DNA of 64,000 bases from Lingula anatina. Lineage: Eukaryota; Animalia; Brachiopoda. Made by a program: the position numbers and the translations under genes. The notes below the pieces were generated by a model. That model was not told the origin of the DNA and did not search any database. It was given only the letters and a program-made list of their open reading frames with translations. The stretch covers positions 3,472,001-3,536,000 of the forward strand of contig CM120649.1 in the NCBI GenBank assembly GCA_051362555.1. Direction: 5' to 3'. This document shows, one piece after another, positions 234 through 41,855 of this stretch (the stretch's first letter is position 1; each line of letters opens with the position of its first letter).

Positions 234-332
234 GATGGCAGGACGCCTCTTCATTGCGCTGTTATATGTGGTCACTACGATGTAGCAGCTCTCCTCATCC
301 AGCACGGAGCTGATCTTTCCAGTACAGACGAA
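234..332 (+). CDS. Gene A ankyrin repeat exon (99 bp, phase 0): DGRTPLHCAVICGHYDVAALLIQHGADLSSTDE
   Basis: cag|gat...gaa|gtatgt; TPLH..A..GH...LL..GAD ankyrin consensus. Confidence 0.93.
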
Positions 333-750
333 GTATGTATATGTGTGTTATACTTGAAATATACCACCCCTTCATTAGTTTGTCTGTGTTTTATACGAAG
401 TAATTGAATATCTTTAAAATACCGATAACTAAAAACTGCTAATATTTACTGCTAACATTACACACGGTCTTAATATTAATAAAGTATTTTAATGCTTATC
501 CCTTAAAAGGGATAAACGCTAGCAGCCTTTCCTTTGACAACACATTAGTATAGATACCAACATCTACATAATCTTCCTTACGTGTTTGCGTATATGTCAT
601 CTTCCTTAAGCACTGTTTTTTAAAGATGAAAATAGTTTTGATACATTTAATTAAAAGTGACCCCCCCTGTTTTATAATGATCCATTTACATTTCATACAA
701 TATGTGTCTGTCTGGTATGTCACTTCATTAAAAATATTGTGTATCTCCAG

Positions 751-849
751 TATGGCTGGACGCCTCTTCATTACGCTGCTGAGGGTGGTCACTGCGATGT
801 AGTAACTCTCCTCATCCAGCACGGAGCTGATCCCTCCAGTACTAACAAG
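751..849 (+). CDS. Gene A ankyrin repeat exon: YGWTPLHYAAEGGHCDVVTLLIQHGADPSSTNK
   Basis: cag|tat...aag|gtatgt; 99 bp. Confidence 0.93.
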
Positions 850-1254
850 GTATGTATATGTGTGTTATACTTGAAATATACCACCCCTTCTTTAGTTTGT
901 CTGTGTTTTATACGAAGTAATTGAATATCTTTAAAATACTGATAACTAAAAACTGCTAATATTTCATCAACATTACACACGGTCTTAATATTAATAAAGC
1001 ATTAAGGGATAAACGCTAGCAGCCTTTCCTTTAACAACACATTAGTATAGATACCAACATCTACATAATCTTCCTTACGTGCTTGCGTATATGTCATCTT
1101 CCTTAAGCACTGTTTTTTAAAGATGAAAATAGTTTTGATACATTTAATTAAAAGTGCCCCCCCCCCCTCCCCGTTTTATAATGATCCATTTACATTTCAT
1201 ACAATATGTGTCTGTCTGGTATGTCACTTCATTGAAAACATTGTGTATCTTCAG

Positions 1255-1353
1255 CTTGGCAGGACGCCTCTTCATTGCGCTGCTAGAGTTGGTCACTGCA
1301 ATGCAGTAACTCTCCTCATCCAGCACGGAGCTGATCCCCGCCGTGAAGACATT
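1255..1353 (+). CDS. Gene A ankyrin repeat exon: LGRTPLHCAARVGHCNAVTLLIQHGADPRREDI
   Basis: cag|ctt...att|gtaggt; 99 bp. Confidence 0.93.
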
Positions 1354-1901: not shown

Positions 1902-1949
1902 GATGGCGGGACGCCTCTTCATTACGCTGCTCATTTTGGTGACTACGAT
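1902..1949 (+). pseudogene. Truncated ankyrin pseudo-exon (DGGTPLHYAAHFGDYD); 3' half and donor deleted
   Basis: Acceptor intact; sequence then jumps into the conserved intron motif tcaaattgagaaatcaaaagaatc. Confidence 0.85.
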
Positions 1950-2342
1950 TTCAAATTGAGAAATCAAAAGAATCTCAGTTCGAGGCCCAGTCCTTAAACC
2001 CGAATATCTAATCCGTTGTGAATTTTGAAAATAATTTTGCTGAAAATATTCTTTAAAAATGTAACCCGAAAACCAAAGATCCCGTACAAAGAAGAAAATG
2101 TGAAACGTATGCAAGTTTTAAGAAAGACTCCTCAGGCTGTTGATCATGTCGAAAAGTTACAACGTGCTGTTTGCGTCCTCCAAAAGCCGCACTGTATTCC
2201 ATGAAATTATTTTGTTTAATGAAATTAATATTATCTATCCTTTATTTGTATCATCACACTAAGAAATATTCAGAAAATGGATGAAAAGCTTGTAACTTTG
2301 TACTCTTTACTTTATATTTGTATATAAATATATATATTCTTC

Positions 2343-2775: not shown

Positions 2776-2865
2776 TTCGGTATAAAGCCCAGTTATTGTG
2801 CACGGTGTCATGGTAATGGTGATATAGACACGCTGCTGAGGAGGTTTGAAAGTGATCATATCCAG
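2776..2865 (+). CDS. Gene A C-terminal capping ankyrin-like exon: FGIKPSYCARCHGNGDIDTLLRRFESDHIQ
   Basis: ttcag|...cag|gtaagt; 90 bp, phase 0; homologous to 28442-28531. Confidence 0.8.
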
Positions 2866-4626: not shown

Positions 4627-4840
4627 GAATTCATGATAACGAGAACGTTGGAGCATGTCTCTGCCGAGATGAGCCTTGATGACTTTTTCCTTCCCACCGA
4701 TGGGATCAATAATAATTTTCCTGGTGAGGTTGAAAAGCAAAAGGTCCAGCGGTTGAAGCAATGGGCAAATTCAAATAATTTCAAAACTATCCAAGGATTA
4801 AAAGCTGGCCTTACAGCTCAAGGACGCGAGGAGCTTTGCG
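4627..4840 (+). CDS. Gene A death-fold-like exon
   Basis: tag|gaa...g|gtgagt; LEHVSAEM...KVQRLKQW...TIQGLKAGLTAQGREELC resembles the death-domain L..W....T...L..AL....R.DL pattern; same 214-bp length as 32794-33007. Confidence 0.75.
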
Positions 4841-5198
4841 GTGAGTTTACTCAGAATAAAAAAAAACGTGAATAATTTTGCAACTTTCTCTACTTTTTAA
4901 ACAAAATCCATGTCAATGTTTTGAACGCCATTTCATTCATTATTTATTTAAACACTGACTGTGCTAGATTGGATACTCCGTTACTCTGTAAATAAATTAG
5001 TTTTGAAGTATTAATAACTGGTTCACTTTATTCACAAAGTCAGGAAATTGGGTATGATATATACCAAACTGTATTATTCTTTTCACTTATAGCAGGGAAA
5101 TATATAATTCACTTTCATGGTAATTAAGCGAATTGCAATTTATAAGAATATATATATATATACATATATATAACCAATACCTATTATACCATTATCCT

Positions 5199-5720: not shown

Positions 5721-6098
5721 CATGGAAGTTGAATCCTGCCATTACGATGCATACCTGATCCACGGCAGTACTGAAGGCAGTTGAGTCACACAAAATACGC
5801 TGCTGCTATGCACCTCGTGATTTCAAGTCTACAGAATCAACCGAGGCAAACATCAATGAAGCGGTGGCATTGTCCAGATGCGCTGTGGATTTCCTGTCTC
5901 GGAACTCCATAAGAGAGAACTGGTGTAAACACGCAAGAGAATTGGCCGTGGTCAAGTCAATTGAGGTCGAAGACTTTGTGGTGATCCCAGCGATTTTGGA
6001 CGTGAAATGGTCGGATTTGCCTTACGGTTACAAAGCCAGAAAAACCATCCAAATGGATAGCCAAGATTTTATCCCCACTCTTGTCAAAGCTATTAAAG
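5721..6098 (+). pseudogene. Gene A TIR exon with 26-nt frameshifting deletion (TGA at 5782-5784)
   Basis: YDAYLIH (box 1), then a frame switch to IRCCYAPRDF...WCKHARE...VIPAIL; 378 bp versus 404 bp in gene B. Confidence 0.88.
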
Positions 6099-7213: not shown

Positions 7214-7407
7214 GTCCGACAGCTGATCCATGCTATGGCGAGCTCCGCAGCGAGAACGAAAACGTAAAACAAGAGAATAATCTACTCCGCAGTGAGAATG
7301 AAAACTTGAAAGCAGAGCTACAAGAAATGAGACAACAACTAGAAGATTCGAATGCGTTGATCAGGCAACAGAAGGCAGATATGCAGAAAGAAGTGACCTT
7401 TAACTAA
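7214..7407 (+). CDS. Gene A terminal coiled-coil exon (PTADPCYGELRSENENVKQENNLLRSENENLKAELQEMRQQLEDSNALIRQQKADMQKEVTFN*)
   Basis: aag|gt, phase 1; heptad-rich with an internal LRSENEN duplication; homologous to 36994-37166. Confidence 0.82.
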
Positions 7408-8156: not shown

Positions 8157-8766
8157 TAATACGTATCTGTCTGTATACATACAGGTAATGTACATGTAAT
8201 AAACATGTATATACGGTATTTACACCGTTGGTCCAAAACGTTAGGCATATTTTCCAGAAAATTAAACCCATAAAGTTATTTTACGAGCCAGGATTCATGG
8301 TTTATGTTTATTTTGATAACTTATGTGCTTATTGAAGGAATTCGGTGGGATTTGACAGTTTACTTAATACTATGAGATATTTATGTATGACACAAGTGCT
8401 GAAGGGGGTCTTTGATCAATTTATAAATAATGGTGTAAGAGATAAAAAAATCTCACTATTTAATAGGTTTGCTAGATATCAATACAGTTTAGTTTATAGT
8501 TTATTTCACTGTAACATATGCATCCACTTGTGTGGATGAAAATGGCAATATGAATACAATTTTTGTGAACATGCTATTAAACAATCACAATGAGTAATTT
8601 ACTTATTTACTAAAAAAACAGTACCTGTAGGTTATGAAAATGTCGTAAACATTGATAGCATGGTTTGCCCTTGGATATGAACCAGTTATAACAGGAGAAG
8701 CTGATGTATTTTCCCCTCGAAGCATGATAAAAGGCGCCACTGTTTCATACCTTGACAAAGGGTCAG

Positions 8767-9008
8767 GGTTCCGTAACTCGAAAGCATTGCGAATTGCGAC
8801 ACCATGTAATGTGATATCGCTATCGCAATATGCGATGCTTTCGAGTTACGGAGCCTATGCAGGGCCCCATAACTCGAAAGCATTGCGCATTGCGACTGAG
8901 CGCAAGCGTCTCGATTTCATAACCCGCCCATACTCGCCCCGTTAATACATTGTAGCCTCTATGTGATAATGTTATTTGCAATACGCGATGCTTTCGAGTT
9001 ACGGGGTC
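8767..9008. mobile_element. Tandem dimer of small palindromic MITEs (ccgtaactcgaaagcat...atgctttcgagttacgg)
   Basis: Interrupts the motif gacaaagggtcagatctg, which is intact near 9600, 40091 and 40712; flanked by CAG/TAG. Confidence 0.75.
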
Positions 9009-13526: not shown

Positions 13527-13579
<53 letters not shown>

Positions 13580-14228
13580 GTTTCGTAAGTGTGAAATACC
13601 TGCTATATGAAAGCCTTGGCAATTGGTATAAAATATTGCCAACAAATGCAATTTATGTTTTCTTTTTCTAAAACATTATAATTTACTACCTTGATATTTA
13701 GAAGGCTTACATAACAAATTATGAAAAAGTATTTGCCCAAATAGACCACCATTCTACGCCTATTTTATTGCAGTCGCTTGCAACCTTCCTGCGACATATT
13801 TTCGAACGCCTGCGATCGGTAAAAAACCTGTTAGCGACCAAGATACTAAAGACCGTCAATCGACCATGCAGTTACAACTGCAACCTTCTGGCGACCTGCT
13901 GCCGACTACTTGCTACTGGTAAAAAACTTGTAAGCGACCAGTCGAATAAATACGGTCAATCGACCGTGCAGTTGCAAATGGTATGCTACTGGTTATAGCA
14001 ACCTACTGACAACCAAGAAGAGACCGATAGGCAACCTTTAGGATACCGATAATTTTCATCTTTAGTCGCACTGGTTGTCGGTGCACAAAAAATGGCCTTC
14101 ATGTGTCAACGATCGCAGGCGACCTGTTAACAACCTTATGCGACCACTTTAAAACCTATGGCAACCTCCTTGCGACTGAGGTTGCAAAGAGGTTGCCAAA
14201 AGGTTGCAAGCGCAGTGTGACTCAGGCT
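10872..14228. mobile_element. Non-autonomous DNA transposon, PIF/Harbinger-like (TAA target duplication)
   Basis: taa|aggccgggtcacactgcgcttgcgacc ... ggttgcaagcgcagtgtgactcaggct|taa; many internal gtcgc/ttgcaac motifs; no transposase ORF. Confidence 0.8.
11054..12240. mobile_element. Second Harbinger-like non-autonomous element nested in the first (TTA duplication)
   Basis: tta|aaccccctttacactggacggcgtcctttctgcgtcc ... ggacgcagaaaggacgtcgtccagtgtaaaggggccc|tta; internal acgcacaagcatcgcc repeats. Confidence 0.82.
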
Positions 14229-14231
14229 TAA

Positions 14232-16591: not shown

Positions 16592-16741
16592 ATGGCTGCA
16601 TATCGTTCATTCAATGCCACGTTCAAGAACAGTCTCCAAAAAGCTGCAGAGATCGGAGATATCGAAACAGTGCGTCAACTGCTAGAAAGTAAAATATGCG
16701 ATGCCAACGAGAGGACAGACACAGTTGGATTGGGCTTACTT
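16592..16741 (+). CDS. Gene B first coding exon, N-cap ankyrin (MAAYRSFNATFKNSLQKAAEIGDIETVRQLLESKICDANERTDTVGLGLL)
   Basis: L..AA..GD.E.VR.LL N-cap pattern; donor gtaagc at 16742; no signal peptide. Confidence 0.8.
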
Positions 16742-17743
16742 GTAAGCATTGCCAAAAATGAACATGCAAAGCATATTTAGAATTTGCTACTCATATGAAT
16801 AAAAAGGAATTTGAGAATAGTTGATAGTAGTTACACAGTAACATGACTCGCAAACAGTGTACAGAATAGGTACAGCACGGAACTGATCCCTACAGTGAGA
16901 ACGAAGTAAGTATATTTTCTTGTAAATATAAATGTGTGGTGCTTGAAATATACATGTACCTGCTCTTCCTTAGTTTGCTTGCGCTACACAAGCAGTTTTT
17001 AATTGTTTAAAATGCATTTTCGTTCTTGAACAAGTGGGTTTTTAATATTATCATTGATACTTGTGTAAACCGATTCTGGCATGTAATTAATACTTCATAC
17101 TTAAAAATAATCTCAAGTTGAGAAATCAAAATAATCTTAATTGAAAGTCCGGTCCTTAAATCCGTGTATCAAATCATTCGTGAATTATCAAAATAAACCA
17201 CTTAAAAGTTCGTTTTGATACATTAATTGCTGAAAATATTTTTAAAAATAAAACCCGAAGACCAAAGAACTCATACAGAGGTGGAAATTTAAACGTGTTT
17301 TCTTAACAGACGTCTCAGATGTGGCTTGGGCTTAATTGGAATAAAAGTAGTGTTCCCTCATTGAGGCACTGTTGTTTAAAGATGGAAATAGTTTTGATAC
17401 ATTCGATTTACAGTGCACCCCGTTTTGTAATGATCCATTAACATGTGATAAAATACCTTTGGTCGGGGATGTCATTTCATCGAAAAATTTATGTATCTTC
17501 AGGATTGCCAGACTCCTCTTCATTACGCTGCTAGTGGTGGCCACAGCGATGTAGATCAAAGTTGTATTTTTAGGACATAAAGCACACTTATCTTTAAAAA
17601 ATCTAAAAAGTTTTAGTATTATATCTACCTTACACACGGTCTTCATGGAATATTAACAGATAAACGTTAGCAGTCTTCCCTTCAACAACGCATTGTATTA
17701 CATCTACATGTAAATTATCTCCCGTACCTGCTGTTGCGGCAGT

Positions 17744-17788
<45 letters not shown>

Positions 17789-20700
17789 ATGACGAAAAAA
17801 GTTTTGATTCATTCAGTTTACAGTGCACCCTTATTTGTATTGTCCACTTACACGGTATACAATATGTCTGTCTGGTGCGTCACCTCTATGATAACATTTT
17901 GTAGGTACCGGTTGACAGGACGCCTCTTCATTACGCTGCTACGGGTGGTCACTGCGATATAGCGGCTCTCCTCATCCAGCACGGAGCTGATCCCTGCAGA
18001 GTGACCTGGGTAGGTATTTGTGTGGTCATTGGTCTCTCTTCGTTACATACGTAGAAATCAAATATGTTTTATGTATTTTTGCATTAACATATAATGTGCT
18101 TTTAAATATTATTATTGATACGTGAATAAACCAATTGGGGTATGTAATTAATCTTTAATATTCTAAAATTATCTCAAATGTAGAAATCAAAAGAAACTTA
18201 ATTTGAGGTCCGGTCCTTAAATCCGTATATCGAATCATTTGTGAATTTTCAAATTGAAGAACTGTACAGTTGGATGTAACACTTAAATTGCTGAAAATAA
18301 ATTGCTGGTATGTCACTTCACTGAAAGCAGTGTGTTTTCTTAGGATGGCCAGACACCTCTTCATTTCGCTGCTACTGCTGGCCACTGCGATATAGCAGCA
18401 TTCCTCATCCAGCACGGAGCTGATCCCTGCAGAGTGACCTGGGTAGGTATATGTGTGGTACTTGGAATATACCACCCCTTCATTGGTCTCTCTTCGTTAC
18501 ATACGTAGTAATCAAATGTATTTTATGTATTTTTGCATTAACATATTATGTGCTTTTAAATATTATTATTAATACGTGAATAAACCAATTGGGGTATGTA
18601 ATTAATCTTTAATATTCTAAAATAATCTCAAATTGAGAAATCAAAAGAAACTTAATTTGAGGTCCGGTCCTTAAATCCGTATATCGAATCATTTGTGAAT
18701 TTTCAAATTGAAAAACTGTACAGTTAGATTTATCACTTAAATTGCTGAAAATATTCCTTAAAAGATGTAACCCGAAAACCAAAGAAGCCGTACAAAGGAG
18801 GAAATTTGAAATGCATATGAGTTTTAAGAAAGACACTTCAGATGTCTTTGAAATAACTAAAAACCTAATATTTTCCCAACATTAGACACGGCGTTACTGG
18901 ATTATTAACGGATAAACGTTAGCAGACTTTCCTTCAATAGCACAATATTATAAATATCAACATGTAAATAAATCCCCTTTACCTAGTTTTTCATCTCTTT
19001 GAGGCAATATTGTTTAAATATGAAAATAGTTTTGATTCGTTCAATTTACAGTGCACCAATTTATTATAATGCTCCATTTACATGTCATTAAATACCTGTC
19101 TGTCTGGTATGTCACTTCATTGAAAGCAGTGTGTTTTCTTAGGATGGCCAGACACCTCTTCATTTCGCTGCTACTGCTGGCCACTGCGACATAGCGGCTC
19201 TCCTCATCCAGCACGGAGCTGATCCCTCCGGTGCAAACAAGGTATGTACATGTGTGGTACTTGAAATATATGCCGCCTCTTCATTAGTCTGTCTTTGTTA
19301 TATACATATTAATTGAATATCTTTATTGCATTTTTGTTTACGAAAATGCAGTAGTATCGAAGCAGTATCGAAGCATCAACGCAGTAGTGGTGTGGAGCAT
19401 ATTTTCAGTAGAAATAGCCTACTACAATTCTACTCCAAAAAGAACATATGTCTACTCCAAAAAGAACATATACAGAGACGAGCATTAATGCAGTAGATTA
19501 GCAGCATGATAGAAGCATGTTTCAAATATGCTAATTAGATACCATATCGAAGCAGATTTGAAGCATGTTTGCAGTATGATTGCAGTAGTCTACTGCGCTG
19601 GAGTATCTACTGCGTTTTCGTGCTCATGAGCTGTAATATTTTTATGTATTATTATTGATACGTGTGTAAACCGATTGTGTCATGTAATTAATCTTTAATA
19701 TTTATAATAATATCAAATTAAGAACAGAAAAAATCTAGTCCGGTCCTTTCATCCGTTTGTCAAAACATTTCTGAATTTCTATGAAATGCTCAAAATCTTC
19801 CTTGAAAATGTTAACCGAAAACTATAGAACAAAGTTGGAAATCTGAAATACATGTATGCTTTATGACAGACACCTCAGGTGTTTTTGAAATAATGATAAC
19901 TAAAAACTGTTAATATTTTTCCAACATTACACACGGTCTTAATATTAATGGAATATTTTAACGGATAAACATAAGCAGTCTTCCCTTTAACAACACATTA
20001 GTGTTGTTGGTGTAGGCTTCATGAAAATCATCTCCCTTACCTGCTGCTGTGTACTAATATGTCATCTTTTTGAGGCACTGTTGTTTAAAGATGATAATAG
20101 TTTTGATTCTTTCAATTTTGAGTGCACCCCGTTTTATAATAAGCCATTTACATTGCGTGAAATATCGTAATATATTATAATGGATGGGTGTATAAACCAA
20201 ATGTGACACATATGTTATCAATATTAATACGATATAACCTCAAATAAAAAAAAGAAATCAAAAGAATCTTAATTCAAAGTCCAGACCATAAGTTTGTTTA
20301 TCAAAAAAATTGTGAATTTTAAAAATTGAGGTACTGTTGTTTGAAGTGGAAAATAATTTTGATTCATTCAGTTTACAGTGCACCCCGTTTTATAGTGATT
20401 TATTTGCATGATATTGTATATCTTCAGGGGGGTCAGACGCCCCTTCATAGCGCTGCTTTTGGTGGTCACAGTGATGTAGCAGCTCTTCTCATTCAGCACG
20501 GAGCTGATCCCAGCAGGTACAGTGTGGTAGGTATACCGTACTTGTAGTACTTGAAGTAAACCATCCCTTCACTGTTCTCTCTTTGTTATATACGTAGTGA
20601 TTGAATATATTTAATGTATTTTCGGTATGTAATTAATCTTTAATACTTTATAATAATCTCAGTTTGAGGAAGTGAAATAATCTTATCTCAAGGTTCAGTC

Positions 20701-23700
20701 CTTAAATTCGATTATCAAATTAATTGTGAATTTTCAAAATAAAGAACTATACAGTTTAATTCAAGGCTTTTAATTGCTGAAAATCGTCCTTGAAGATATA
20801 ACCAGAAAACAAAAGAAGTCGTGCAAAGGTGTAAACCAAAAATGCATTACACACGCTCTTAATATTTATAAAACATTAACGGATAAACATAAGCAGTCTT
20901 CCCTGAAGAAACACATTAGTATTGTTCATGTAGCTTCATGTACTTCATCCCCTTACCTGCTGCTCTGTACTAATATGTCATCTCTTTGAGGGACTGTTGT
21001 TTAGAGATGACAATAGTTTTGATTCGTTCAATTTAGAGTGCACCCCGTTTTATAATAATTCATTCTGATACTTACGTCATTTCATTGAAAAAATTGTTCA
21101 TTTTCAGGATGCTCGGAGTCCTCTTTTTGACGCTGCTATGGGTGGTCACTGCGATGTAGTAACTCTCCTCATCCAGCACGGAGCTGATCCCTGCAGTATG
21201 AACTGGGTAGGTACGTGTGGTAATTGGTGAAATCGTCTCTTAAATGACTACGTCTTGGGTTGGCTCCATTCAAGTAGCTGTGACCTGGTGCATGGATACG
21301 AGCTGTCTTTGTTATATACGCAGTAATTGGATATCTTTATTGTATTTTCGTACATGAGTATACGTTTTTATGATTATTATTAGTGATACGTGTATAAACC
21401 GCTTTTGCCATGTAATTATTTTTAAACATTTATAATAATCTCAAATTTAGAAATTAAAATAATCTAGTGCGGTCCTTTGTTCCACTTATCAAAACAATTG
21501 AGAATTTTTAAAATCAAGAACTATAAGTTCGTTGTTATACTATTAACTGCTGAAAATCTTCCTTGAAAATGTTACTGAAAGCCAAAGGACTCGTACAAAC
21601 ATATGCATGTGTGTTTTATGACAGACACCTCAGATGCCTTTGATTATAATAATAATTCATTTACATGGCATGATATATTAATTTTTTGTTTGTCTGGTAT
21701 GTCAGTTCATTGACAACATTGTGCATCTTCAGATGAGAGTGACGCCTCTTCATGACGCCGCTATGGGAGGTCACCGCGATGTAGCAGCTCTTCTCATTCA
21801 GCACGGAGCTGATCCTTGCAGTGAGGACTGGGTAGGTATATGTATGGTACTAGAAATAAATAATTTGTATTATTATCGATTTATGTATAAACCGGATGTG
21901 GCGTGTAATTTTTACTTAATATGCCACAATGACCTCAAATTGAGAAATCAAAAGAATCTTAATTCAAAGGGGTAATAACTCTTCGTGTGACGAAGCTGTT
22001 GGCTTGTCTTCTTCATGTTACGCGAGGTAGCAAATACAACTCAGATATTATCTTTTTTATTATTTATTGAACTACTGTCCAGTTATTACCCGCGCCGCTT
22101 CCTTCATTTCTATTCCTACCTCATACAATCTCTAGCGGCCTTCTCTCTGTTTACACTAAGCGTAGTTGTATAAATACCATAAGAGCATGTCAATCAACCT
22201 AAGTTACTCTACTAAACACTCCCCGCTCTTATTCACTGCATGCTGTCACTTACTAACGTTCCATTCGTATAATTGAGATCTATATTTCACAATAAAAACA
22301 TTGTGAACAACTCATAGAAATACAAAATGTTCTGTTGTACTGCAAAAAGGACAGTTATGGGGAAAGGAGACAAGATGGCGTAGAGGATGACACGAACTCT
22401 AGGACACGGGACATAAATTGGTCTTTCTTGACATAGACAAGTGAACACAACGTCTGATGTGGTACATTCTGAACAAGTGTACATCCGTGAACGAGCTGAT
22501 CGGGTGGAGAAAGCACAAATAAGGTGAATAACTGATATTTTTTAACCTCATCACATAGACATAGTCTGCGCGAACGTCGCATAGTGGATGATACACACTG
22601 ACTACATTAAATTTCACGCAGTGCTGTCAACCTTTCAGCATGTCATCCAAACACACAAAAAACACTAAAAAGGGTGAGCCTACACCCAAACGTACGCACA
22701 GCGAAGTCTCCAATACAAGTGCTGAAGAAAATAGCAGCATTATCTTAGCGGAACTAGAAGAAATAAAATCTTATATGAAAGACATGATAAACAAAGACGA
22801 ACTGAAAGAACTAGTAACCACCTTAGTTACAGAAATGTTAAAAGAAATGAAAAAAGAAATGGGTTCACAAATCAACAATATGCGAGAGAAATTAGACTTC
22901 CTGGAATTTGAAAATAAAAACCTTACAGAAAACATTGCAAGGAAAGACAAAGATTTACTTAAATTGAAAGAGGAGATAAAAGATTGAGGCGGACAAACGA
23001 TCAAACTACAACGAACAGTATTCACGTAAGAACAATATTAAAATCTACGGGATAAAGGAAGAGACAAAGGAGAACACCAAGTCCGTCGTACGCGACACAT
23101 TGAAGGAAGTAGCACAGATAACACTCCGGGATGATGACATTCTAGCAGTACATCGTATACCTGGGGCAAAAACACAACAACCGAGACCTATAATTTTACG
23201 AGTGAATAACACGGAGACAAAAGCTAAATTCATGAGGTGCAGAAGGGCAATGAAAACCTCGAGGCAAAACTTGAGACTGGCAGATGACGTCACAAAAAAG
23301 AACGCGCAACTTATCCAGCGCCTCGTTAACCACCCTGAAATTGATCAAGCATGGTACTTTAATGGGTCAGTTTATGGTCGGCCGAAAGACAGCACAAAAA
23401 GGGTGAAATTTGACCTGCACGATGATATTAATTTAAAGATAAGAAACGCTTGAGCATGAACTTTATTCCTCCTTTTTCCATTTTCCTCTTGCTTTAATTT
23501 TGCACATAAAACCAATTGTCGCACAAAACTGAACGCTCTCCCATGTACGTTTTCTTATATGTAGTATATTGTGTGAGTGTATGTTTGTGTTTAAATGAGG
23601 TGAGTAAGTGGATAATGGCCGTGCGTAAGACTGAGATTGTGTGCGAAAGTAAAAGTGTGCACGTGATACATGTCTGTTTGTCAAGCGATGAAAAGAATGG

Positions 23701-29700: not shown

Positions 29701-32700
29701 TAGAACTAAACTTGAGCAAGTCCGAAGCCCTGTGGCTTGGAAGTAATAGATTCAACAACGAAAAGCCCCTCGGGTTGCTATGGCCAGATAGACCAATAAA
29801 AGCTCTCGGAATTCATTTCTCTTATGATTACGAAAGCTGTAGGTTTCTAGACTTCGATGGTAAAGTTGATCAAATTGAAAGCTGCTTAACCTTTGGTCCA
29901 GCAGAGACCTCACATGGATTGGAAAGATACAAATACTAAAAACATTGGGTCTGGCTAAACTGGTTTATGCTAATACAGTTCTTGAGACCCCAAATGATAT
30001 TATTTTGAGGATAGATGCTTTATTCAAAAAATTTCTATGGAATGATAAAAAACCAAATTTAAAGCAGAATACATTAATAGCCCCAAAGAGTAAAGGTGGT
30101 TTAAATTTGACGCATGTGCCATCGCACGTGCGGTCTCTGAAGGCCTCAATGGTTAAGCGCATAATGTTAGCTGACAACGATGATCCGTGGGTAATAAACA
30201 TACTGAAATATTTAAGAAGTGTGGGAGGAAAACTCATTTTCAGTTGTAATTATGAACTTAAGAATATTAACATTTCGGACATGCCACCTTTTACGTAGCC
30301 ATGCTAGATGCATGGAGTGATTTAATACAAACAGACCCTAATAATGCCTCCGATATAAAGAAACAGATAATATGGAATAATAGATTCATACTTGTAAACA
30401 AAAAGTCAATATATCTAAGGCATTGGTCAAAAGCCGGAGTTAATTATATTCAAGATATCATAAATATTAATGGTGAATTTATATCATTAGAAGAAATAAT
30501 AAATCAACACAACTTCGATATTAAGCTACCGAATTTTCTAGAATACGAAAAAGTAAAAAAATCAATTCCGATATTATGGTTACGTAAACTTCGGGAAAAT
30601 GCAGAATCAGTTGACAACACAGACTCAGATGAGATAGTATGGACTCTTGCCTCTACAAAAAACATTTACGATAAGCTAATAGAAAGAAATGTAATAAATT
30701 TACCCACAGCAAGTTTGCATCTTATCAAATCAGGCATAAGTGAAAATGATTGGCAGAGAGTTTTCTTGATACCATTTGAGTCTGTCAAAGAAACTCAACT
30801 ACAAGTAATGCAATACAGAATAATTCACAATGTGCTGTACACAAATTCTACACTGTTCAAAATGAAAATAGTTACTAGCCCAGGATGTACTAACTGCCAT
30901 ATGAAAGAAACAATAATACATCGTTTTGTGGAATGTGTACGTGCAAGAAATTTTTGGATTGTATTTGAAAACTGTTGGAACATTCCGAATAATACCATAC
31001 ACTTCAGAAAAAATGAAAAAACTATAATGTACGGGTGTCTGTCAAGCGACCAGCGCGTAAAAGCTTTAAATTTCTGTATTATTGTGGCTAAACAATTCAT
31101 AAACAAAAATTCAGAAAATCCATCAGTCTATGATTTTGAACTGTTTCTGCATTTTCTTAGCCAGAAGAAGAAAATAGAAAAATACATTGCTATAAAGACA
31201 GGAAAAGAAGATAGGTTTAATACAAAATGGAAACGCATTCCTACCATAACGTGTTAAAATTTTCACCTCTAGTACGCTATAGTTGCCGTTATGTAGTTCA
31301 CAACAAGCATGTATACGTGTAGTATGTATGGATGGATGAGTGAGTGAAAGTATGTCTATATATTTATGTTCTTTTTTATTTTTCAGTATTTAATTACCGT
31401 AATTGCCATCAGTATTATATGCATTTAATCTTTGATTATCTGTCTAAACATTTCATTAAATATGTTATAGTTGCCGATATGTAGCTCACGCGTAGTATGC
31501 ATGGATGGATGAGTGAGTGAGAGTATTTCTATATATTTACGCTCTTTTTATTTATCTATTAGTATTTAATTACCGTAATTATCATCAGCTTTGTTTTACA
31601 TGCATTCAATCTTTGATTATCTGTTTAAATATTTCATTATATATGTATATTTTCTTTTTTTTTTTCTTTGAGTGAATAAACGCATTAAAAAAAATAAATA
31701 AAAAAAATAAAAAAAGGACAGTTATAGCTGTTATTCTGATATCTGAGCTTGTCTTTAAACCAAGTGACCTCCATTGATAGCTATACTTAAGAGATTATAA
31801 CAAAAAGACTTTTTAGAAAAATAAAAACATGGGCTAACTTTGAATGTAAAAATGGATTCATTAACCATTGGTAATTATGGGGAAATCGTTGTTTACTCCA
31901 GTATTTTTTTTCCAAAACGAAGAGTTATTATCCCTTTAATTAAAATATTAAATCAATATGTTTGAAAAAGATAAGTTGTGGTTCTTTTAGGAGGTGTCAA
32001 TAAAGTTCGGATGAATAACTAAAATAGTCCCATTTACACCCAATTATGAAAAGGATAAATAATGGTATTATCATACTAATGTTGATGCTCTGTTGTACTG
32101 TTATTCTTAACGCAATGGCCATTGAATAAAACGTGTTGAATAAATCAGTTTCTTTGGTTTTAGTTCGGCTTGAAGCCCAGTGATCTTGCACAGGAAGCTG
32201 GTTATGATGTTCTATGCTTGCTGTTAAGGAAATTTGAAAGTGATCAAATCCGGGTAGGCTAACGCACAGCATACAATTAAGTATATAACATTAAATATAA
32301 TAATGGTTATGTAACATCATTAAATCGACACATATCGTAAATTAATATTTGTATTTGTCTTGCTAACCATTTGAATTGGTAGGTTCGTTTGGGCGTTTAA
32401 TACTGCATGTGTAACCATACGACCTACATGTAACCGCCTTGACTGCCATCCAACGGGTCTAAAACCTCACTGGCTTAGAACATTTCTGTAATATGGATGA
32501 TATTACAAGGCTTTATTTCTAATATCAATCCAATTTTTTGTCTTATCATCTAGTGAGGGCACACCTAGTCAATCCCATTTATATCCCGCTAAAATAATTA
32601 TGCTTCCTTCAGATTGATCCGGTTCCTTTTAATTGTGATATATGTATTAAGAAATAAAGTCATTATCCACGGTCCGAGGTTGTGTATTCCGAGGCATTTT

Positions 32701-35700
32701 TCAAGACATTAATAAAAAAACAATTCAAAGAAATAAATAAGCAAATGTTTGACGTTTATAAGACAAAAATTATGCAACATTTTGTTTTTTCAGAAATTCA
32801 TGATAACTAGGACGTTGGAGCATGTCTCTGCCGAGATGAGCCTTGATGACTTTTTTCTGCCCACCGATAGGATTATTAATATTTTTCCTGTTGAAGTTCA
32901 AAAGCAAAAAATGCAGCGGTTGAAAAAATGGGCACATTCAAAAAAATTCAAAACTATTCAAGGAATAAAAGCTGGACTTACAGCTCAAGGACGAGAGAAG
33001 CTTTGTGGTGAGTTTACTCTGAATAAATACAAATTATGTATGAATAACTTTGCGACTTTGTCTTCTTTTTTGTTTGTTCTGTGAATCTTATTTCAATGTT
33101 TTGAACGGTATTTCAGCAATTATTTATATATTCAAACACCGACTGTGCTTATTTCGATACTCCGTTACGCTGGCATGTTTATGGTCATCAGAGTAATATT
33201 GTACCTAAAGAAAAGTTTAGTTTATATATAACTAGTTCTTTTTCTTCCGCCAACTACATATTTATCTTGTTAATTTTTGACAGTAAAAGCGCTGTTGGTG
33301 GACGTGGGGTTCTTCATTATAATGACTCGACATGTAAACGCAATAAAAACTTCCAATTATATTTCAGTTATTGCTGCAGAACGTTATGCTAACGTTGCCA
33401 AGGTGATCACAGATATGTCTTGGAAACGATACGAAAGTCTCCGTGAAGATCTTTCAACAGCCCAGTTTATGTTCCAAGAGCTTCCAATACCTGCGTTAGA
33501 AGCACAGAGCCAGGAAATCAGGTATGCTATAAACCATACTTAGCATTTAATATGTTCCACATTTCTACAGCAGAGAAGAATTTTGGCGTATGTGATATAC
33601 ATCTCTCACATCTGAGAGTAAGTAAGTCTTCATGAAATATTTATAGCGGGTAAGTTCATATCTTACAAGCGAATACTGAAGTAAAAAAAACTGGCCAACC
33701 TCAGCTGTGACACTTATTATTTCATTAAAACTTATTTTATTACCCTAGCATGGAGCATGAATCCTTCCAATATGATGCGTTCCTGATTCACAGCGGTGAG
33801 GATAAACCTAAAGTCGAAGAAGTTTTGGAGCTGCTCGAGTCACGTGATATCCGTTGTTGTTATGCACCACGTGATTTCCTACCCGGAAGAAGCATATTAT
33901 CTTGCATAGAAGACGCCGTGGAATTGTCCAGGTGTACTGTAGTCATGGTGTCTGAGAACTTTATGAAAAGCACGTGGTGCCAGCATGAACGAGATGTGGC
34001 CGAGGTCAAGGCAAAAGACACGGAAGGTTATTCGGTGATCCCTGTTCTTTTGGGCTTCAAACCGTCAGATCTGCCAAGTGCTTACAAAGTCAAAAAGTTT
34101 ATCCTTGCTGATAGCCAAGATTTTATTCCCACATTGGTCAAAGCTATTGAAGGTATTTTTCTCTCTAGAAGTCTTTATCTCATGGGTTTTATTTCCCTAC
34201 ATTATTAATTGAAACAGCAACTAAACAAATCAAACTTTGTTAACGCTAAAATGCTGCAATGCTTCTATTGAGGGGCCTCTTGTACTAGAAATGCACCATG
34301 TTCCATAATTTACCACCTGACTATCATTCTAATAACGATGCGCGCGTTATACGTCACAGGTCTTGCATAACTACCCACGTGCTACGATTTTTCCCTTGGG
34401 GGGGCAACAAGCGGCCATTTTGTACAGGAGCAATGCATAGATGGGTGAAAACGATACGTTGTTTTTAACCGAAAACGATGTCCCCGGGATGAAACTGCCA
34501 ACACCAAAAGTAAAGGAGAATACCAACGTTGTTTTGAAACGATGTGGTTAGCCTGTCAGTGGCGAGTTGGGGAGAAAAGAGCAGCACTGATTGCAAGGTA
34601 CTGTTTACACGTGAACCGGCAAAGTTAATGATAATTTCATGTTGCAAAAGCAAAATTAAATCAGTTAGTTATTTTCCAAACGATATTATTTGAATAGCAG
34701 ATACATAGATCAAACTAACAACAATAAAATTTTTGATGACATTGATTGAAACCTGCGGTGCACGATAGGTTGAGGAGGACACTGCCACAGCAAGTAATGC
34801 ATGAATTTTGTTACATAACACCGTATGCTTGTGTCATTGTTAACTCTGCGGTATTATTACTCAATTTACTGCTTAAATTAATACCTGATACTATTTCTCA
34901 GGCTACCAAGTACAAATCACCTTATTTTGTGGCAGTTGACCTCCATGTTCCATCTTGTGTGCAGGTTGTTTATTATTATTTTCATTATTATTATTATTAT
35001 TTGTTCAAGCCCATTTTGATAAAGTGGCTATGCTTTAACAAGAGAAATTTATGCTAAGTTTAAAAGATTAAATCATCAGTAGTATATACAATTAAAGCTA
35101 TTTGATTATGCATTATTTGATTTTCAATTATCTTGATTATGATATGAGGTTTCTGCCTTTTTCTCTTGCCCTCAAATCAATATCTAACAAGTAAATTGAT
35201 AGTGCTTTATTACAATTTTTGCTTTATACTTTCAGATGTAAAAACTGTGTAGCAGTTGGTAAAGCTGTAGAGATTGATGTGAGCATAGATCAGGGGAAAT
35301 GGTATTAGAGAAACCAGGAGGACAAGACATAGATAATGTACTAGTAGATCCATCATCACAGCAAGGATAGATGGTGTGATCTTGTCCCTGAAGCTGTGCC
35401 TCAAGTTTTCAACAGGTTGAGTCCTTACTAAGACAAGCTGCTGCGGTGTGAATTGCAATATGTACATTCAGGTTATACGTGGCAGATTTATGACAAAAGA
35501 GACCTTCACAATATACTTCAAAGGAGTTATTCTTGCATCTATGCCTCATCAAAAGTACACAGTTACAGTGACTAGAACATTGTTTGCAAATAGTGAAGCA
35601 GTGGAGGCTGCAAAGTGCCATTGTTTTTCAGTATTAAGAATGACAGTATCTGTTTTTTTATTTATTTTTATTTTTCATTTTTAATGGGAAGGAGACTCAT

Positions 35701-37166
35701 TTTGTTCTTTCTATGCCCATTCAGTTAAGGGTTGGTGGCAATATATGGTAAATCTGTCATGCCTGTATGTAGAATTTCTCTGGCTCAAATTTCCACATTT
35801 ATTGGGTGCATTATGAGGTTGCCTGACTGATTAATGAGGTTACTTGTAGAAATATCTTGCTTACACATTTCTTGTGATTTTTTTACTGCTATATACAGAT
35901 GATTATTCACATCTAAACAGTGGTGTGTGAAAGGAACATGTACTTGGTATTTGCATTTTAGAACTGTAGAATGTGTACCAGCAGGGTTATATTTCATAGT
36001 ATATCTGCGAATGTTTCTAAAAATAAGCTTCATGTTTGATAATTAATTGGTTTGAAATAAATAACCCAAATAAAATCAATTCATTTTATATTTCACATAA
36101 TCTGTTTTTATTATTCTCCTAAGCATTTAATCATAACATCTCCCATCATTATACTGTTATTGTGCAATAACATTGAAAGTTTCCAAGTTTTTATTAACAG
36201 GTTGATGCTAACGTATCAACCTGTTATGTATTATAAGTGAATTTAAGCATATTTCCTTACTCAAATGTATCAAACATACCACTGTCATAATACCGGTAAA
36301 GATACAGGTAAAGATGACACCATTAATAACTGGGTTTACAGCGCTGTTAGTGCAGAATGGTTAGTGTCAGATTGTTATCTGATAAAGTTTGCTACTTGTA
36401 CCTGGGAGCAAAAGGTCTGGCACTTGACAATCAAGTTGATAAAATCACAAAACGCCTGTAGAAAATAGAGCATACCTGCCCAACATTGATTTGTTCAGAT
36501 TCTTGACTAAGGGGTGCGTTACTGGTGTCAAGGGCCAAGACTGGAACTTAGGGGTTTGGCATGTCACTGGACATTCCCCTCGATTTCTGCCCAAATCTAA
36601 TAAAGCCTCAGTTGCTTAGCTTTAACCAAATTTCCAATACCTACAGGTTGTGTTGTTTAATGCTTGGGGTCTCTTCTCTGGCGGCGGTTAATTGGGGACA
36701 CCTGTGTGGCCTGTCAACGCACCTACATTGTAGATTCACTTTTGCCGGTGCCACATTTTCCATTGCCGTAAATATCAAATTCGTGAATAGAATGAGGAAA
36801 AAATGACAATTATGAAAAAATGTTTTTTGGAAGTACCTGTCACCTTCGCCACAGTAACCATATGGGCTGTGTTGCCCCCCCCGCCACAGGCGACACCTTG
36901 CGGAGCAAGCGTGCGTAATCCAGGGTGCAACTGAAAATAACCTTGTCGCGCGACCTTATTAGGTTATAGCGTATACATATTTTATATTTCTAGGCTCAAC
37001 AGCCGACCCGCCCTATGGCAAACTTCGCACTGGGTATGAAAGTATGAAGCAAGAGGTAGAAAGACATAAGATGGAGCTCCAAAAAAAAAGTCAGCGACTT
37101 GAAGATTCAAGTGCATTAATCAGGCAACTGCGGGCAAAATTGGAGGCCACATCACTTTCTGATTAA
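16592..37166 (+). CDS. Gene B: ankyrin-array - death-fold-like - linker - TIR - coiled-coil protein (putative intracellular immune receptor/adaptor)
   Basis: Exons 16592-16741, 17905-18009, 18344-18442, 19143-19241, 20428-20526, 21108-21206, 21733-21831, 28442-28531 (duplicate 32164-32253), 32794-33007, 33368-33521, 33749-34152 and 36994-37166; splice phases are compatible and the joined frame is open. Confidence 0.85.
16870..16905 (+). pseudogene. 3' remnant of an ankyrin exon (VQHGTDPYSENE); possible 36-bp in-frame mini-exon
   Basis: ag|gta...gaa|gtaagt, followed by the conserved intron unit. Confidence 0.6.
17503..17554 (+). pseudogene. Truncated ankyrin pseudo-exon (DCQTPLHYAASGGHSDV)
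   Basis: Acceptor intact; 3' half and donor missing. Confidence 0.82.
17905..18009 (+). CDS. Gene B ankyrin exon (105 bp, shifted acceptor): VPVDRTPLHYAATGGHCDIAALLIQHGADPCRVTW
   Basis: No AG at the usual position; an in-frame AG lies 6 nt upstream; donor gtaggt. Confidence 0.72.
18344..18442 (+). CDS. Gene B ankyrin exon: DGQTPLHFAATAGHCDIAAFLIQHGADPCRVTW
   Basis: tag|gat...tgg|gtaggt; 99 bp. Confidence 0.9.
19143..19241 (+). CDS. Gene B ankyrin exon: DGQTPLHFAATAGHCDIAALLIQHGADPSGANK
   Basis: tag|gat...aag|gtatgt; 99 bp. Confidence 0.92.
19339..19622. mobile_element. Small MITE inserted in an ankyrin-unit intron
   Basis: Inverted ends tacgaaaatgcagtag / ctactgcgttttcgtg; absent from the sibling introns. 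Confidence 0.7.
20428..20526 (+). CDS. Gene B ankyrin exon: GGQTPLHSAAFGGHSDVAALLIQHGADPSRYSV
   Basis: cag|ggg...gtg|gtaggt; 99 bp. Confidence 0.92.
21108..21206 (+). CDS. Gene B ankyrin exon: DARSPLFDAAMGGHCDVVTLLIQHGADPCSMNW
   Basis: cag|gat...tgg|gtaggt; 99 bp. Confidence 0.88.
21733..21831 (+). CDS. Gene B ankyrin exon: MRVTPLHDAAMGGHRDVAALLIQHGADPCSEDW
   Basis: cag|atg...tgg|gtaggt; 99 bp. Confidence 0.9.
22640..23453 (+). pseudogene. LINE ORF1 (coiled coil + RRM-like + CTD), frameshifted near 22985
   Basis: Coiled coil, then EQYSRKNNIKIYG...AVHRIP...PRPIILR...LADDVT in a second frame. Confidence 0.88.
23772..27534 (+). pseudogene. LINE ORF2 (APE endonuclease, reverse transcriptase, C-terminal CCHC) with frameshifts near 24095, 26170 and 26570
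   Basis: SLNVRGL, LQET, GGDFN, RLDY, TDH, WRPISLL, LDFKKAFD, GVRQGCPLS, QYADD, CTNC...H...C. Confidence 0.95.
28442..28531 (+). CDS. Gene B C-cap ankyrin-like exon: FGLKPSDLAQEAGYDVLCLLLRKFESDQIR
   Basis: tag|ttc...cgg|gtaggc; homologous to 2776-2865. Confidence 0.82.
28964..32685 (+). repeat. Tandem duplicate of 25241-28963 (3' half of the LINE, MITE end, C-cap exon)
   Basis: Identical ORF translations at an offset of 3723/3722; ATTC microhomology at the junction. Confidence 0.95.
32164..32253 (+). CDS. Duplicate of the gene B C-cap exon
   Basis: Identical to 28442-28531, with splice sites intact. Confidence 0.7.
32794..33007 (+). CDS. Gene B death-fold-like exon
   Basis: cag|aaa...g|gtgagt; KMQRLKKW...TIQGIKAGLTAQGREKLC. 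Confidence 0.8.
33368..33521 (+). CDS. Gene B linker exon (VIAAERYANVAKVITDMSWKRYESLREDLSTAQFMFQELPIPALEAQSQEI)
   Basis: cag|tt...ag|gtatgc; phase 1 to 2, which bridges the death-fold and TIR exons. Confidence 0.82.
33749..34152 (+). CDS. Gene B TIR domain exon
   Basis: YDAFLIHSGED (box 1), CYAPRDFLPG (BB loop), VSENFMKSTWCQHE, VIPVLL. Confidence 0.95.
36994..37166 (+). CDS. Gene B terminal coiled-coil exon (STADPPYGKLRTGYESMKQEVERHKMELQKKSQRLEDSSALIRQLRAKLEATSLSD*)
   Basis: tag|gc, phase 1; homologous to 7214-7407. Confidence 0.82.
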
Positions 37167-39161
37167 CTCTAACATAGAATATGTATCTTGCTATTGCTTG
37201 CTGGAAGAAATTTGAATTTTGAAGAATATTGTAATTCTGATGAGGCGTGTTTTAAATTTGTGTTTCTAATGAACAATGTACACTGTAAGCACCACGCCCA
37301 TTTTGGGATAATATTTTTGTCATTATGGCTCTTTCACATTTGGCGTAAAGCCCTACCTATGAGTATCGTATGGGACATAGATTATACGCACATCTTGGAA
37401 CGTCTGTTTCCGCTGTATTAATATGACGATACAGGCTGCATGATGAAATTGCATGTTATTGAACATGCACAAAACAGTTTGTTTTTCTACGGGTATGTGA
37501 ATGTACGCCAACGATTGCCGGCATATGCGACCTAAGTGTTACGAACCTATTGCGCTTGTCTGAGTATGCGTATTTTTCTTCTCCGTTAGTGCTATGCACT
37601 ATGTGTGACAGTGCCTGTACTTTTTATTCTAAGTAAGCAAGGTGGTTGTCTCTCCGATTTTTTTAATCTAGACTGTTGTTATAGTGTTATAGGATGTCAC
37701 AAGTGTGTTTTGATTCATTACACTCATAAAAATTGTTAGATGTGGAAGACAAATACATATTTAGGAAGATGTTGACGATTGACAAGAAAATCCAAAAGAG
37801 ATTTCAAAGAATGAAACTGCACCAACTGGACTAACATATCCTCAGATATACGGCGAAGAAAGAGACAATCATATTACCTATATATATGCAGATGAAGATT
37901 GAATGGTAATTTTAAAAAAAATATTATACTGTATCAGTTTAAGAATCAGTCTATCTGTACGGTGGATGTAGCACAAATTTGTTTTTTTTTTTTTTTTTTC
38001 AAATGCTGTGTCCTTTTAGGACATTTAAAGGCATTTCATTATATAGATAAGTTTCATATAATACGTTTTTTTCTGTTTTAGTTGAAACCTACTTACACAT
38101 GTTTTAATTGAAACCTACTTACACATGTACCTATACGCAATTCACTTTATTTATTTGAACATATTTATTTAATGTCTGCAGATGTGCCATATCTTCGATG
38201 TCTTCGATATGACATCAATAATATTCCTATGTTTTATATTATATCGGATGTCTCTTGTTCTGATTAATCATAAAAACGAACCTACATGTAGCAAGAAGGT
38301 ACTCACAGTTGATAGTTTGGTGGAAAACGTATATAATTCAATCCTTGATATGTTTCACGATCTCACGCCCTCCAGCTCGGCCTTCCCCCCCCCCCCCCCC
38401 CCTTTTGCACACGTAATGTTATCTTTTTCTAAGCGTCGTGAATGGGTACATGAAAGGCAGCAATATTAGTAAACCTTGACGACCTTTGACCAGATCTGGA
38501 CATGGAAATACTGCTACGTTTCGCTCTTGACGGATGGCGAAAGACGAAACAAGTCAGTTTGTTTATTTTTTAAATCTTGTTTCTCCCCTTTTTTGTTTCT
38601 CCAATTTTTGATTGTACATTTGGAAAAATAAAATTGCGTTGCAAATGTTGTGGCTTTTGGTGTTTATTGGGATTTTTACTATCTTTAGTCCAAAATCTCT
38701 ACAGTGTACAAATATCGTACAGGTACCGTCAGAACCTAGTTCCGCCTGGGCGCTGTAACAGTAAAAAAAGTTCGGTGTATACGCAATTGGCTCTAGACCA
38801 ATATTGTGGCTATTGGTATTTATACGCGCTGGTAACCACCAAAATTCCAGAACCTCTACGGTCTATAAATATCGAATACGTCCCAGATACCGCCAGTGCC
38901 GAGTAGAGCCGGGAGACTGTTACAGTAACGTTAGGTGTACTGGGTATACACAATTGTCTCTGGACCAAAGAAAAAGCGGCCAAGCCAAATAGTCGCTGTG
39001 CGCAGGAATAGTTCCCAAATAGAGACGCGATGTAATTTTGCAGAATACCGTTGACATGAATTCTCTTGACAGGAATTGTTTTCAGCTATAAACGTCATTT
39101 TATTTACCTTAGTGCCATTTACTTGGCCGTTTTTCATAAAACAGTAGAACTGACCACCCTT

Positions 39162-40140: not shown

Positions 40141-40185
<45 letters not shown>

Positions 40186-41564: not shown

Positions 41565-41855
41565 ATGATGCTACGTGTTCTCATCGGCGTGTGCCTTGTT
41601 GCTCTGGCAGTATGTTTGGTACCAGATGTGTATAGAAGAAAACCGGCTCTCACATGTTATTCCTGTAACTACAAGAATACTGCATATGGCAACGGTAAGT
41701 GTTTAATCAGCCACTTTTGTACTCCGATTCTTTTTGCAGTTTGTTAATCACTGGTAGGTACTTGTATGCAGATGATTAGATAGATCGTGTCGGTAATTAA
41801 GTGTCAATGGCGTTTTCATGAAGACCTAAATCGTTTATAAATGCATGGCGGTTTC

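What the first reader, a model, noticed from the sequence alone, without database searches (positions are those of the whole stretch)
234..1353. Exons diverge more than their introns, and almost only non-synonymously
Seen (counted by hand): exons 234-332 and 751-849 differ at 17 of 99 nt, changing 12 amino acids with only one purely synonymous codon change. The first ~115 nt of the following introns differ at only 2 positions. The core ctcctcatccagcacggagctgatc is almost invariant in all copies, including third positions. Inference: concerted evolution homogenises the units while diversifying selection, or targeted diversification, acts on selected codons.
Basis: partly seen in the sequence, partly recalled or inferred. 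Interest (0 to 1): 0.85.

Follow-up and report, generated by a model that had tools for sequence, protein, structure and literature searches.

The report
Hypervariable ankyrin exons in brachiopod receptors
Each 99-base exon encodes one ankyrin repeat of a lamp-shell gene that also carries a TIR signalling domain, and the repeat's likely binding-face codons change about three times faster than the flanking introns, as expected of an immune-type receptor under selection for new specificities.

Summary
The counts are right (17/99 nt, 12 amino acids, 2 differences in 115 intron nt). The exons are single ankyrin repeats of two tandem Lingula anatina genes built as ankyrin array, predicted death-fold domain, TIR, coiled coil. 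Diversifying selection holds: M1a/M2a 2dlnL 32.6, omega about 5.4; 0 of 465 neutral simulations with recombination approached the partition test's value. Fast codons are 1, 3, 8, 11, 29, 31-33, and two paralogues vary at similar positions. Three claims are overstated. Exon-above-intron divergence is local: over all 36 pairs exons (0.233) equal flanks (0.225, 0.239). The quoted pair has pN 0.18, pS 0.15. The core's silent invariance is not significant (P=0.19). Units recombine, also inside exons. No sign of targeted mutation. Gene A is broken downstream in this window; expression is untested. It works like brown-algal ROCO/TPR exon cassettes and fungal ankyrin NLRs but is neither. The scan noted an analogous LRR case in another genome, not this family.

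The parts
234..332 (+). Gene A ankyrin exon, 33 codons, phase 0-0; protein-identical to repeat 4 of RefSeq model XP_013406475.1 (P0123)
333..750 (+). Intron, 11 mismatches in 398 aligned positions to intron 850-1254 (recently homogenised)
751..849 (+). Gene A ankyrin exon, phase 0-0; no close counterpart in P0123 (9 or more differences from each of its 4 repeats)
850..1254 (+). Intron, near-copy of 333-750
1255..1353 (+). Gene A ankyrin exon, phase 0-0; differs from repeat 2 of P0123 only at positions 8 and 12
1902..1952 (+). Truncated ankyrin exon (about 17 codons, acceptor intact, no donor)
2776..2865 (+). Gene A C-terminal capping-repeat exon, phase 0-0
4627..4840 (+). Gene A first exon of the predicted death-fold domain; 71 of 71 residues identical to P0123. 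The second exon of this domain survives only as a remnant near 5030-5052
5721..6098 (+). Gene A TIR exon; 26 nt shorter than in gene B, frameshift and early stop in this window; RefSeq P0128/P0271 are open here
7214..7407 (+). Gene A last coding exon (coiled-coil-like tail, inferred from sequence)
16592..16741 (+). Gene B first coding exon, N-terminal capping repeat, phase 0 donor
16873..16906 (+). Remnant of the 3' part of an ankyrin exon
17503..17554 (+). Truncated ankyrin exon (5' half only)
17911..18009 (+). Gene B ankyrin exon; normal acceptor lost, an in-frame AG lies 6 nt upstream
18344..18442 (+). Gene B ankyrin exon; chimera, 5' part like exon 19143, 3' part and intron like exon 17911
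19143..19241 (+). Gene B ankyrin exon, phase 0-0
20428..20526 (+). Gene B ankyrin exon, phase 0-0
21108..21206 (+). Gene B ankyrin exon, phase 0-0
21733..21831 (+). Gene B ankyrin exon, phase 0-0
32164..32253 (+). Gene B C-terminal capping-repeat exon (identical second copy at 28442-28531 inside a 3.7-kb duplication)
32794..33007 (+). Gene B first exon of the predicted death-fold domain
33368..33521 (+). Gene B second exon of the predicted death-fold domain and linker
33749..34152 (+). Gene B TIR exon, open, 100% identical to XP_013379346.1 (P0001)
36994..37167 (+). Gene B last coding exon (coiled-coil-like tail, inferred from sequence)

Best explanation
The units are one-repeat-per-exon ankyrin cassettes of two tandem Lingula genes (ankyrin array, predicted death-fold domain, TIR domain) whose likely binding-face codons are under diversifying selection while recombination between units reshuffles exon halves and homogenises some introns, likely to vary what an intracellular immune-type receptor recognises. 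Shown: exon anatomy and phase; domain order; excess non-synonymous change at codons 1, 3, 8, 11, 29, 31-33; conserved framework; a chimeric exon; dead exons in the array. Inferred: unequal crossing-over or gene conversion makes new repeat combinations; a conversion or duplication tract that copied intron 333-750/850-1254 left, or was selected to leave, the neighbouring variable codons different; the ankyrin face binds a microbial or host ligand and the death-fold/TIR part signals as MyD88 does. Ligand, expression and signalling are untested, and gene A looks like a damaged allele or copy in this window.
For: Pfam Ank on 5 of 5 repeat exons scanned; TIR_2/TIR; 8 of 9 full exons have AG/GT ends, all 9 are 99 nt without stops. 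M1a/M2a 2dlnL 32.6, omega 5.4; M7/M8 35.8, M8a/M8 32.9. The seven-codon partition test holds on each exon half under its own tree and under the flanking-intron tree (2dlnL 17-30), without the core (29.8), and in gene B alone (omega 2.8, P=0.003). Tree-free: diversity 0.62 at positions 1+2 of those codons (14 columns) against 0.21-0.24 in 202 intron columns (P=4e-8), 0.17 at 11 fourfold sites, 0.13 in framework. Null simulations, neutral variable codons, 1-33 independent trees: max 2dlnL 9.98 and max omega 2.26 in 465 runs, observed 40.4 and 6.7. Control: the non-repeat exons of A against B give dN/dS 0.27 and 0.50. Per-position variability correlates with repeats of P0002 (rho 0.61) and P0124 (rho 0.56). 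Recombination. Linker model pLDDT 86.5; best match FADD death domain Z 9.1, rmsd 3.4, 89 aligned; 34 of 50 rows are death-fold entries by title.
Against: Codon 8 was added to the partition after seeing the data; the other six positions were recalled from DARPin design, not read in a paper (the six alone give 2dlnL 42.8). Codon 12 is not flagged by M2a and codons 29 and 32 are flagged though outside the recalled set. Simulations tested the partition test only, not M2a/M8; 17 of 465 exceeded 3.84. In the homogenised stretch silent exon sites also exceed the intron rate (P 0.005-0.03), so amino-acid selection alone does not explain the contrast. Gene A's TIR is frameshifted and one exon mostly lost here; RefSeq models split A in two and start B inside a LINE, without ankyrin exons. 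Foldseek gave no match at E<=0.001 for the linker and Z 9.1 is within the range that helical bundles reach by chance. No immune function was tested.
Confidence: 0.7

Rival explanations
1. Mosaic history without positive selection: one intron was copied recently by conversion, the exons are simply older, and surface codons are merely unconstrained (omega = 1).
For: Explains the local intron identity, the silent excess in the exons and the family-wide equality of exon and intron divergence. Pair 234/751 has pN/pS near 1.2.
Against: Variable codons exceed both fourfold sites and introns about threefold before correction for saturation; 0 of 465 neutral simulations with recombination reached the observed statistic.
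Confidence: 0.12
2. A dedicated diversifying process (templated micro-conversion from donor exons or enzymatic hypermutation, germline or somatic) writes changes into the variable codons.
For: Multi-hit codons cluster in a stretch whose introns differ by under 3%; dead exons lie in the arrays and could serve as donors; the window's exon set differs from RefSeq model P0123.
Against: No WRC/GYW or CpG bias; no inverted exons were found in the window; ordinary recombination plus selection covers the data.
Confidence: 0.08
3. Assembly artefact: mixed haplotypes or a collapsed or expanded repeat made the near-identical introns and the extra exons.
For: The window holds a 3,727-nt duplication at 99.97% identity and frameshifts absent from RefSeq proteins; reads could not be checked.
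Against: The two introns differ by 11 substitutions and several indels; exon 234 is protein-identical to a RefSeq repeat; the position pattern recurs in gene B and in RefSeq paralogues.
Confidence: 0.05
4. Selection is real but the driver is not microbes: the proteins act in self/non-self or gamete recognition, or are decoys that bind pathogen effectors.
For: Fungal repeat receptors with this evolution act in allorecognition (PMC12222747, search listing); gene A's TIR has Ala where gene B has the Glu of the WCxxE motif, and RefSeq P0123 ends before the TIR.
Against: No signal peptide or membrane segment was evident in the models by eye (not computed); death-fold plus TIR is the MyD88 arrangement (established knowledge).
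Confidence: 0.1

Closest known systems
Brown-algal ROCO LRR exons and NB-ARC-TPR exons (Ectocarpus; PMC3341825, PMC11378527; passages read)
   Same: One repeat per exon, same phase throughout, inactivated exons inside the array, tandem paralogues and pseudogenes, positive selection on the ligand face, signalling domain C-terminal of the repeats in ROCO.
   Different: Here ankyrin (99 nt, phase 0) rather than LRR (72 nt, phase 2); TIR and predicted death fold rather than ROC-COR or NB-ARC; an animal; no inverted exons seen; alternative splicing not shown here.
Fungal NLRs with highly conserved ANK, TPR or WD repeats (Podospora; PMC4986451; passages read)
   Same: Ankyrin repeats with repeat-number variation, recombination between repeats and positive selection on inner helix and hairpin loop.
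   Different: No NACHT or NB-ARC domain here; repeats are split by introns; repeat identity is 62-72% pairwise, below the paper's 85% bar; repeats are N-terminal.
MyD88 (death domain + TIR adaptor; established knowledge; structures listed)
   Same: Predicted death-fold domain directly followed by a TIR domain.
   Different: Variable ankyrin array in front and coiled-coil-like tail behind; TIR only 24% identical to MyD88's; death fold is predicted, not matched by Pfam; orthology not tested.
DARPins (designed ankyrin libraries; PMC8229355, passages read)
   Same: N-cap, exchangeable 33-residue modules, C-cap; fixed framework with variable residues. The paper places randomised positions on the concave face; their numbering is recalled, not read.
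   Different: Natural, exon-encoded, and fused to signalling domains.

Membership tests
Ankyrin repeat (PF00023) | 33-residue repeat above the Pfam gathering score | tested here: met
   5 of 5 repeat exons scanned, 39-47 bits against cut-off 21.1
TIR-domain protein (PF13676/PF01582) | TIR profile above cut-off and TIR fold | tested here: met
   Gene B 68.2 bits, gene A fragment 33.0 bits, cut-off 28; model matches Hydra TRR-2 TIR Z 18.0, rmsd 1.6, 122 aligned
Death-fold superfamily | Helical bundle matching DD/DED/CARD/PYD | tested here: inconclusive
   Best Z 9.1, rmsd 3.4, 89 aligned to FADD DD; 34 of 50 rows death-fold; no Foldseek E<=0.001, no Pfam Death hit in 11 proteins, no usable Atlas hit
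MyD88 | Orthology to MyD88 and recruitment of IRAK kinases | not tested
   No tree with MyD88 was built; binding not assayed
NLR / STAND receptors | Central NACHT or NB-ARC NTPase | tested here: not met
   No such Pfam family in 11 of 11 family proteins scanned; the tblastn-mapped exon chain leaves no room for one
ROCO | ROC-COR tandem | tested here: not met
   None in 11 of 11 proteins scanned
Fungal high-internal-conservation repeats | At least 85% internal identity over 100 residues | tested here: not met
   Pairwise 0.62-0.72, agreement with commonest residue 0.77-0.83 in 7 repeat sets; not the paper's T-REKS program
Exon-shuffled repeat receptors (brown-algal type) | One repeat per symmetric exon, dead exons in the array | tested here: met
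   9 full 99-nt phase 0-0 exons and 3 broken ones; for this window only, no DNA of other family members
Exon-shuffled repeat receptors (brown-algal type) | Positive selection on the ligand-binding face | tested here: met
   assignment of the codons to the face rests on recalled ankyrin numbering and PMC4986451, no ankyrin model was built
Exon-shuffled repeat receptors (brown-algal type) | Alternative splicing of repeat exons | not testable with these tools
   No reads were obtained; P0123 joining exon 234 to the C-cap could be skipping or a different haplotype
NAD-cleaving TIR enzymes | Catalytic glutamate in the WCxxE-like motif and NADase activity | tested here: inconclusive
   Glu present in gene B and P0002, Ala in gene A; motif assignment is recalled; activity not assayed
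ecTIR-DC families (Gerdol et al.) | Assignment to one of the numbered conserved TIR families | not testable with these tools
   The defining papers were not read; PMID 29278680 is not held

The most novel reading that the evidence does not exclude
Lingula carries a natural DARPin library: a brachiopod-specific family of cytosolic receptors in which exchangeable, positively selected ankyrin exons are recombined between haplotypes and skipped in splicing to give many binding surfaces, wired directly to a MyD88-like death-fold/TIR output, so that sensor and adaptor are one protein.
Probability: 0.3. Interest if true: 0.8.

Novelty: new variant of a known kind. Interest (0 to 1): 0.55.

Why it matters
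Invertebrates lack antibodies, and how they widen recognition is an open question. Exon-cassette repeat receptors are described in brown algae and intron-free versions in fungi; this is the same logic with ankyrin repeats in an animal, joined to a TIR domain and a predicted death fold. It names specific codons and a small gene family on which allele diversity, splicing and ligand binding can be tested. The evolutionary principle itself is known.

Tried and rejected
No genome is held, so upstream exons of gene A and other loci could not be read. No sequencing reads were obtained, so expression, splicing and assembly accuracy are open. The core motif found 0 matches in metagenome contigs. A whole-protein search with P0002 returned generic ankyrin proteins at 30-51% identity, no further paralogue among the 120 listed. 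ESM Atlas gave no usable hit for the linker. A PDB profile search with alignment A2 was filled by ankyrins and said nothing on the linker. Intron tree lengths (2.0-2.3) include non-homologous stretches and were not used; one search masks those stretches for exons 18344, 21108 and 21733. Partition omegas for the three gene A exons alone (6 and 330-500) are unstable and were dropped; its M0 omega is 3.4. The gapped count of 7/57 was replaced by the ungapped 10/57. The motif regex hit the wrong site in 4 proteins and was not used. Three broken exons were left out of all rate tests. The repeat regex missed repeats with indels (for example 9 of 11 in P0002). Two papers read for DARPin position numbers did not give them. 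Ten paper searches showed no description of this family, but the Lingula immune survey (PMID 29278680) is not held and may describe it. Rejected: pseudogene drift as the source of the pattern (12 of 33 codons invariant, no stops); a single tandem duplication; AID-like or CpG hypermutation.

Full report
What is there. The window starts inside an array of about 510-nt units. Each holds a 99-nt exon, AG...GT, phase 0 at both ends. Five of five such exons scanned match Pfam Ank above its cut-off. BLAST of one exon finds 11 places: 9 full exons, three at 234-1353 and six at 17911-21831, and 2 truncated ones; a further remnant lies at 16873. Downstream of each array come a capping-repeat exon, a helical domain, a TIR exon and a last exon, so the window holds two tandem paralogues, A (start outside the window) and B (16592-37167). 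B's TIR exon is 100% identical to Lingula anatina XP_013379346.1, and an intact 725-residue paralogue, XP_013395417.1, has the same layout. In a search of 1.84 billion representatives, 10 of the 149 other listed rows match from within the first 110 residues of the query; all 10 are named Lingula anatina. I looked up names for 22 of the 150 rows. Six of 11 family proteins scanned carry both ankyrin and TIR above cut-off. The linker folds as a helical bundle (pLDDT 86.5) whose best match is the FADD death domain (Z 9.1, rmsd 3.4, 89 aligned; 34 of 50 rows death-fold by title); Foldseek, Pfam and the Atlas did not confirm it, so the death fold is a prediction.

The observation. The hand counts are exact. 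The full introns differ at 11 of 398 positions against 17 of 99 in the exons (P=1e-6), and no breakpoint of a single duplication brings the exon count below 14. But the near-identity is one tract: the intron before exon 234 differs from its counterpart at 24 of 231 positions, and the intron after exon 1255 at 12 of the first 60. Over all 36 pairs exons differ at 0.233 and 80-nt flanks at 0.225 and 0.239. 'Almost only non-synonymous' counts whole codons; by mutational paths 3.67 of 17 changes are silent, pS 0.150 against pN 0.179. The two other pairs of the trio are skewed (pS 0.06, pN 0.24-0.26). Over all pairs pS and pN are both 0.23. The core is invariant in protein across the window's exons but for one residue, yet its silent invariance is within chance (P=0.19), and RefSeq repeats of the family vary there.

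Selection. The whole-exon ratio near 1 hides two classes. With my own codon-likelihood code on the 9 exons, M2a beats M1a (2dlnL 32.6; 30% of codons at omega 5.4; posterior above 0.9 at codons 1, 3, 8, 11, 29, 31, 32, 33) and M8 beats M7 and M8a (35.8, 32.9). A partition of six positions recalled from DARPin design gives omega 8.3 against 0.86 (2dlnL 42.8); adding codon 8, chosen after seeing the data, gives 7.1 against 0.71. The result holds per exon half, under intron-derived trees, without the core and in gene B alone, where it is weaker (omega 2.8, P=0.003). Free of any tree, first and second positions of those seven codons have diversity 0.62 against 0.21-0.24 in introns and 0.17 at fourfold sites, while framework positions fall below introns (0.13, P=0.004). 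In 465 simulations with neutral variable codons and 1 to 33 independent trees the statistic never passed 9.98 (observed 40.4), though 17 passed 3.84. Non-repeat exons of A against B give dN/dS 0.27 and 0.50. Similar positions vary in P0002 and the distant P0124 (rho 0.61, 0.56); surface positions vary in any ankyrin set, so this is weak support. Window exon 1255 differs from a RefSeq repeat only at positions 8 and 12, and two RefSeq repeats differ only at 8, 11 and 17. PMC4986451 (passages) names the inner helix and hairpin loop as the ankyrin binding interface; placing these codons there is from established ankyrin numbering, not from a model built here. Multi-nucleotide mutations were not modelled.

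Recombination. Exon 18344 follows exon 19143 at its first 9 informative sites and exon 17911 at the next 11 of the remaining 12 (P=1e-4), switching between exon positions 39 and 48; incompatible column pairs are 16 of 86 at short range and 83 of 174 at long range (0 of 5000 permutations as low). In gene A silent exon sites exceed the rate of the homogenised introns (P 0.005-0.03; most of these lie in multi-hit codons), so the variable exon parts probably have an older ancestry than those introns: a conversion tract, or exchange that selection let through only where exon differences were kept. RefSeq model P0123 runs from the repeat equal to exon 234 straight to the C-cap, has an exon-1255-like repeat upstream and nothing like exon 751: exon skipping or a differently ordered haplotype; I cannot tell which. 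No mutation-motif bias points to a targeted enzyme.

Functional state. In this window gene A has lost most of one exon and has a 26-nt deletion in its TIR exon, where RefSeq P0123 and P0128 are whole. Gene B's exons are open and in phase, but a LINE lies between its ankyrin array and C-cap, and the RefSeq model starts inside that LINE. The selection signal is therefore historical and need not mean that these two copies work today.

Comparison. [quoted passage not shown] The signalling half resembles MyD88; orthology was not tested. PMC8195603, PMC6321704, PMC5549309, PMC11463336, PMC8229355 and PMC8602657 were seen as passages and do not describe this family in them; no supplements were read. 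Ten searches found no account of it, but PMID 29278680 was not available. The scan's index held one analogous note on LRR exons in another genome and nothing for this genome or sequence.

Verdict. New variant of a known kind; interest 0.55.

Noticed in passing
window 25241-32689: Head-to-tail duplication of 3,727 nt at 99.97% identity holding the 3' part of a LINE and gene B's C-cap exon; assembly artefact or very recent duplication.
   Followed up: no
window about 22500-28200: LINE (endonuclease, reverse transcriptase, zf-RVT) in sense orientation in a gene B intron, with a frame switch near 26150-26213; RefSeq model XP_013379346.1 starts in its ORF2 and splices to the C-cap exon.
   Followed up: partly
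window 5030-5052 and 5721-6098: Gene A lesions absent from RefSeq proteins: most of one exon missing and a 26-nt frameshifting deletion in the TIR exon.
   Followed up: partly
window 5721-6098 against 33749-34152: The two TIR exons are more diverged (pS 0.49) than neighbouring exons and introns of the same gene pair (0.19-0.25), and A has Ala where B has the motif Glu.
   Followed up: partly
window 8616-9731 and 39162-40839: Shared non-coding repeats about 70% identical lie downstream of both genes, consistent with whole-gene duplication.
   Followed up: no
window about 41567-41695: Read by eye: a short exon with a signal-peptide-like start followed by a cysteine motif, possibly a secreted LU/Ly6-type gene (name recalled).
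   Followed up: no
window 10857-14230: Region with inverted matches (10871-10923 with 14177-14229; 11057-11120 with 12174-12237) and a 31-nt tandem array, probably a non-autonomous transposon.
   Followed up: no
window 59927-60039: Short array of 3.5 copies of a 33-nt unit.
   Followed up: no
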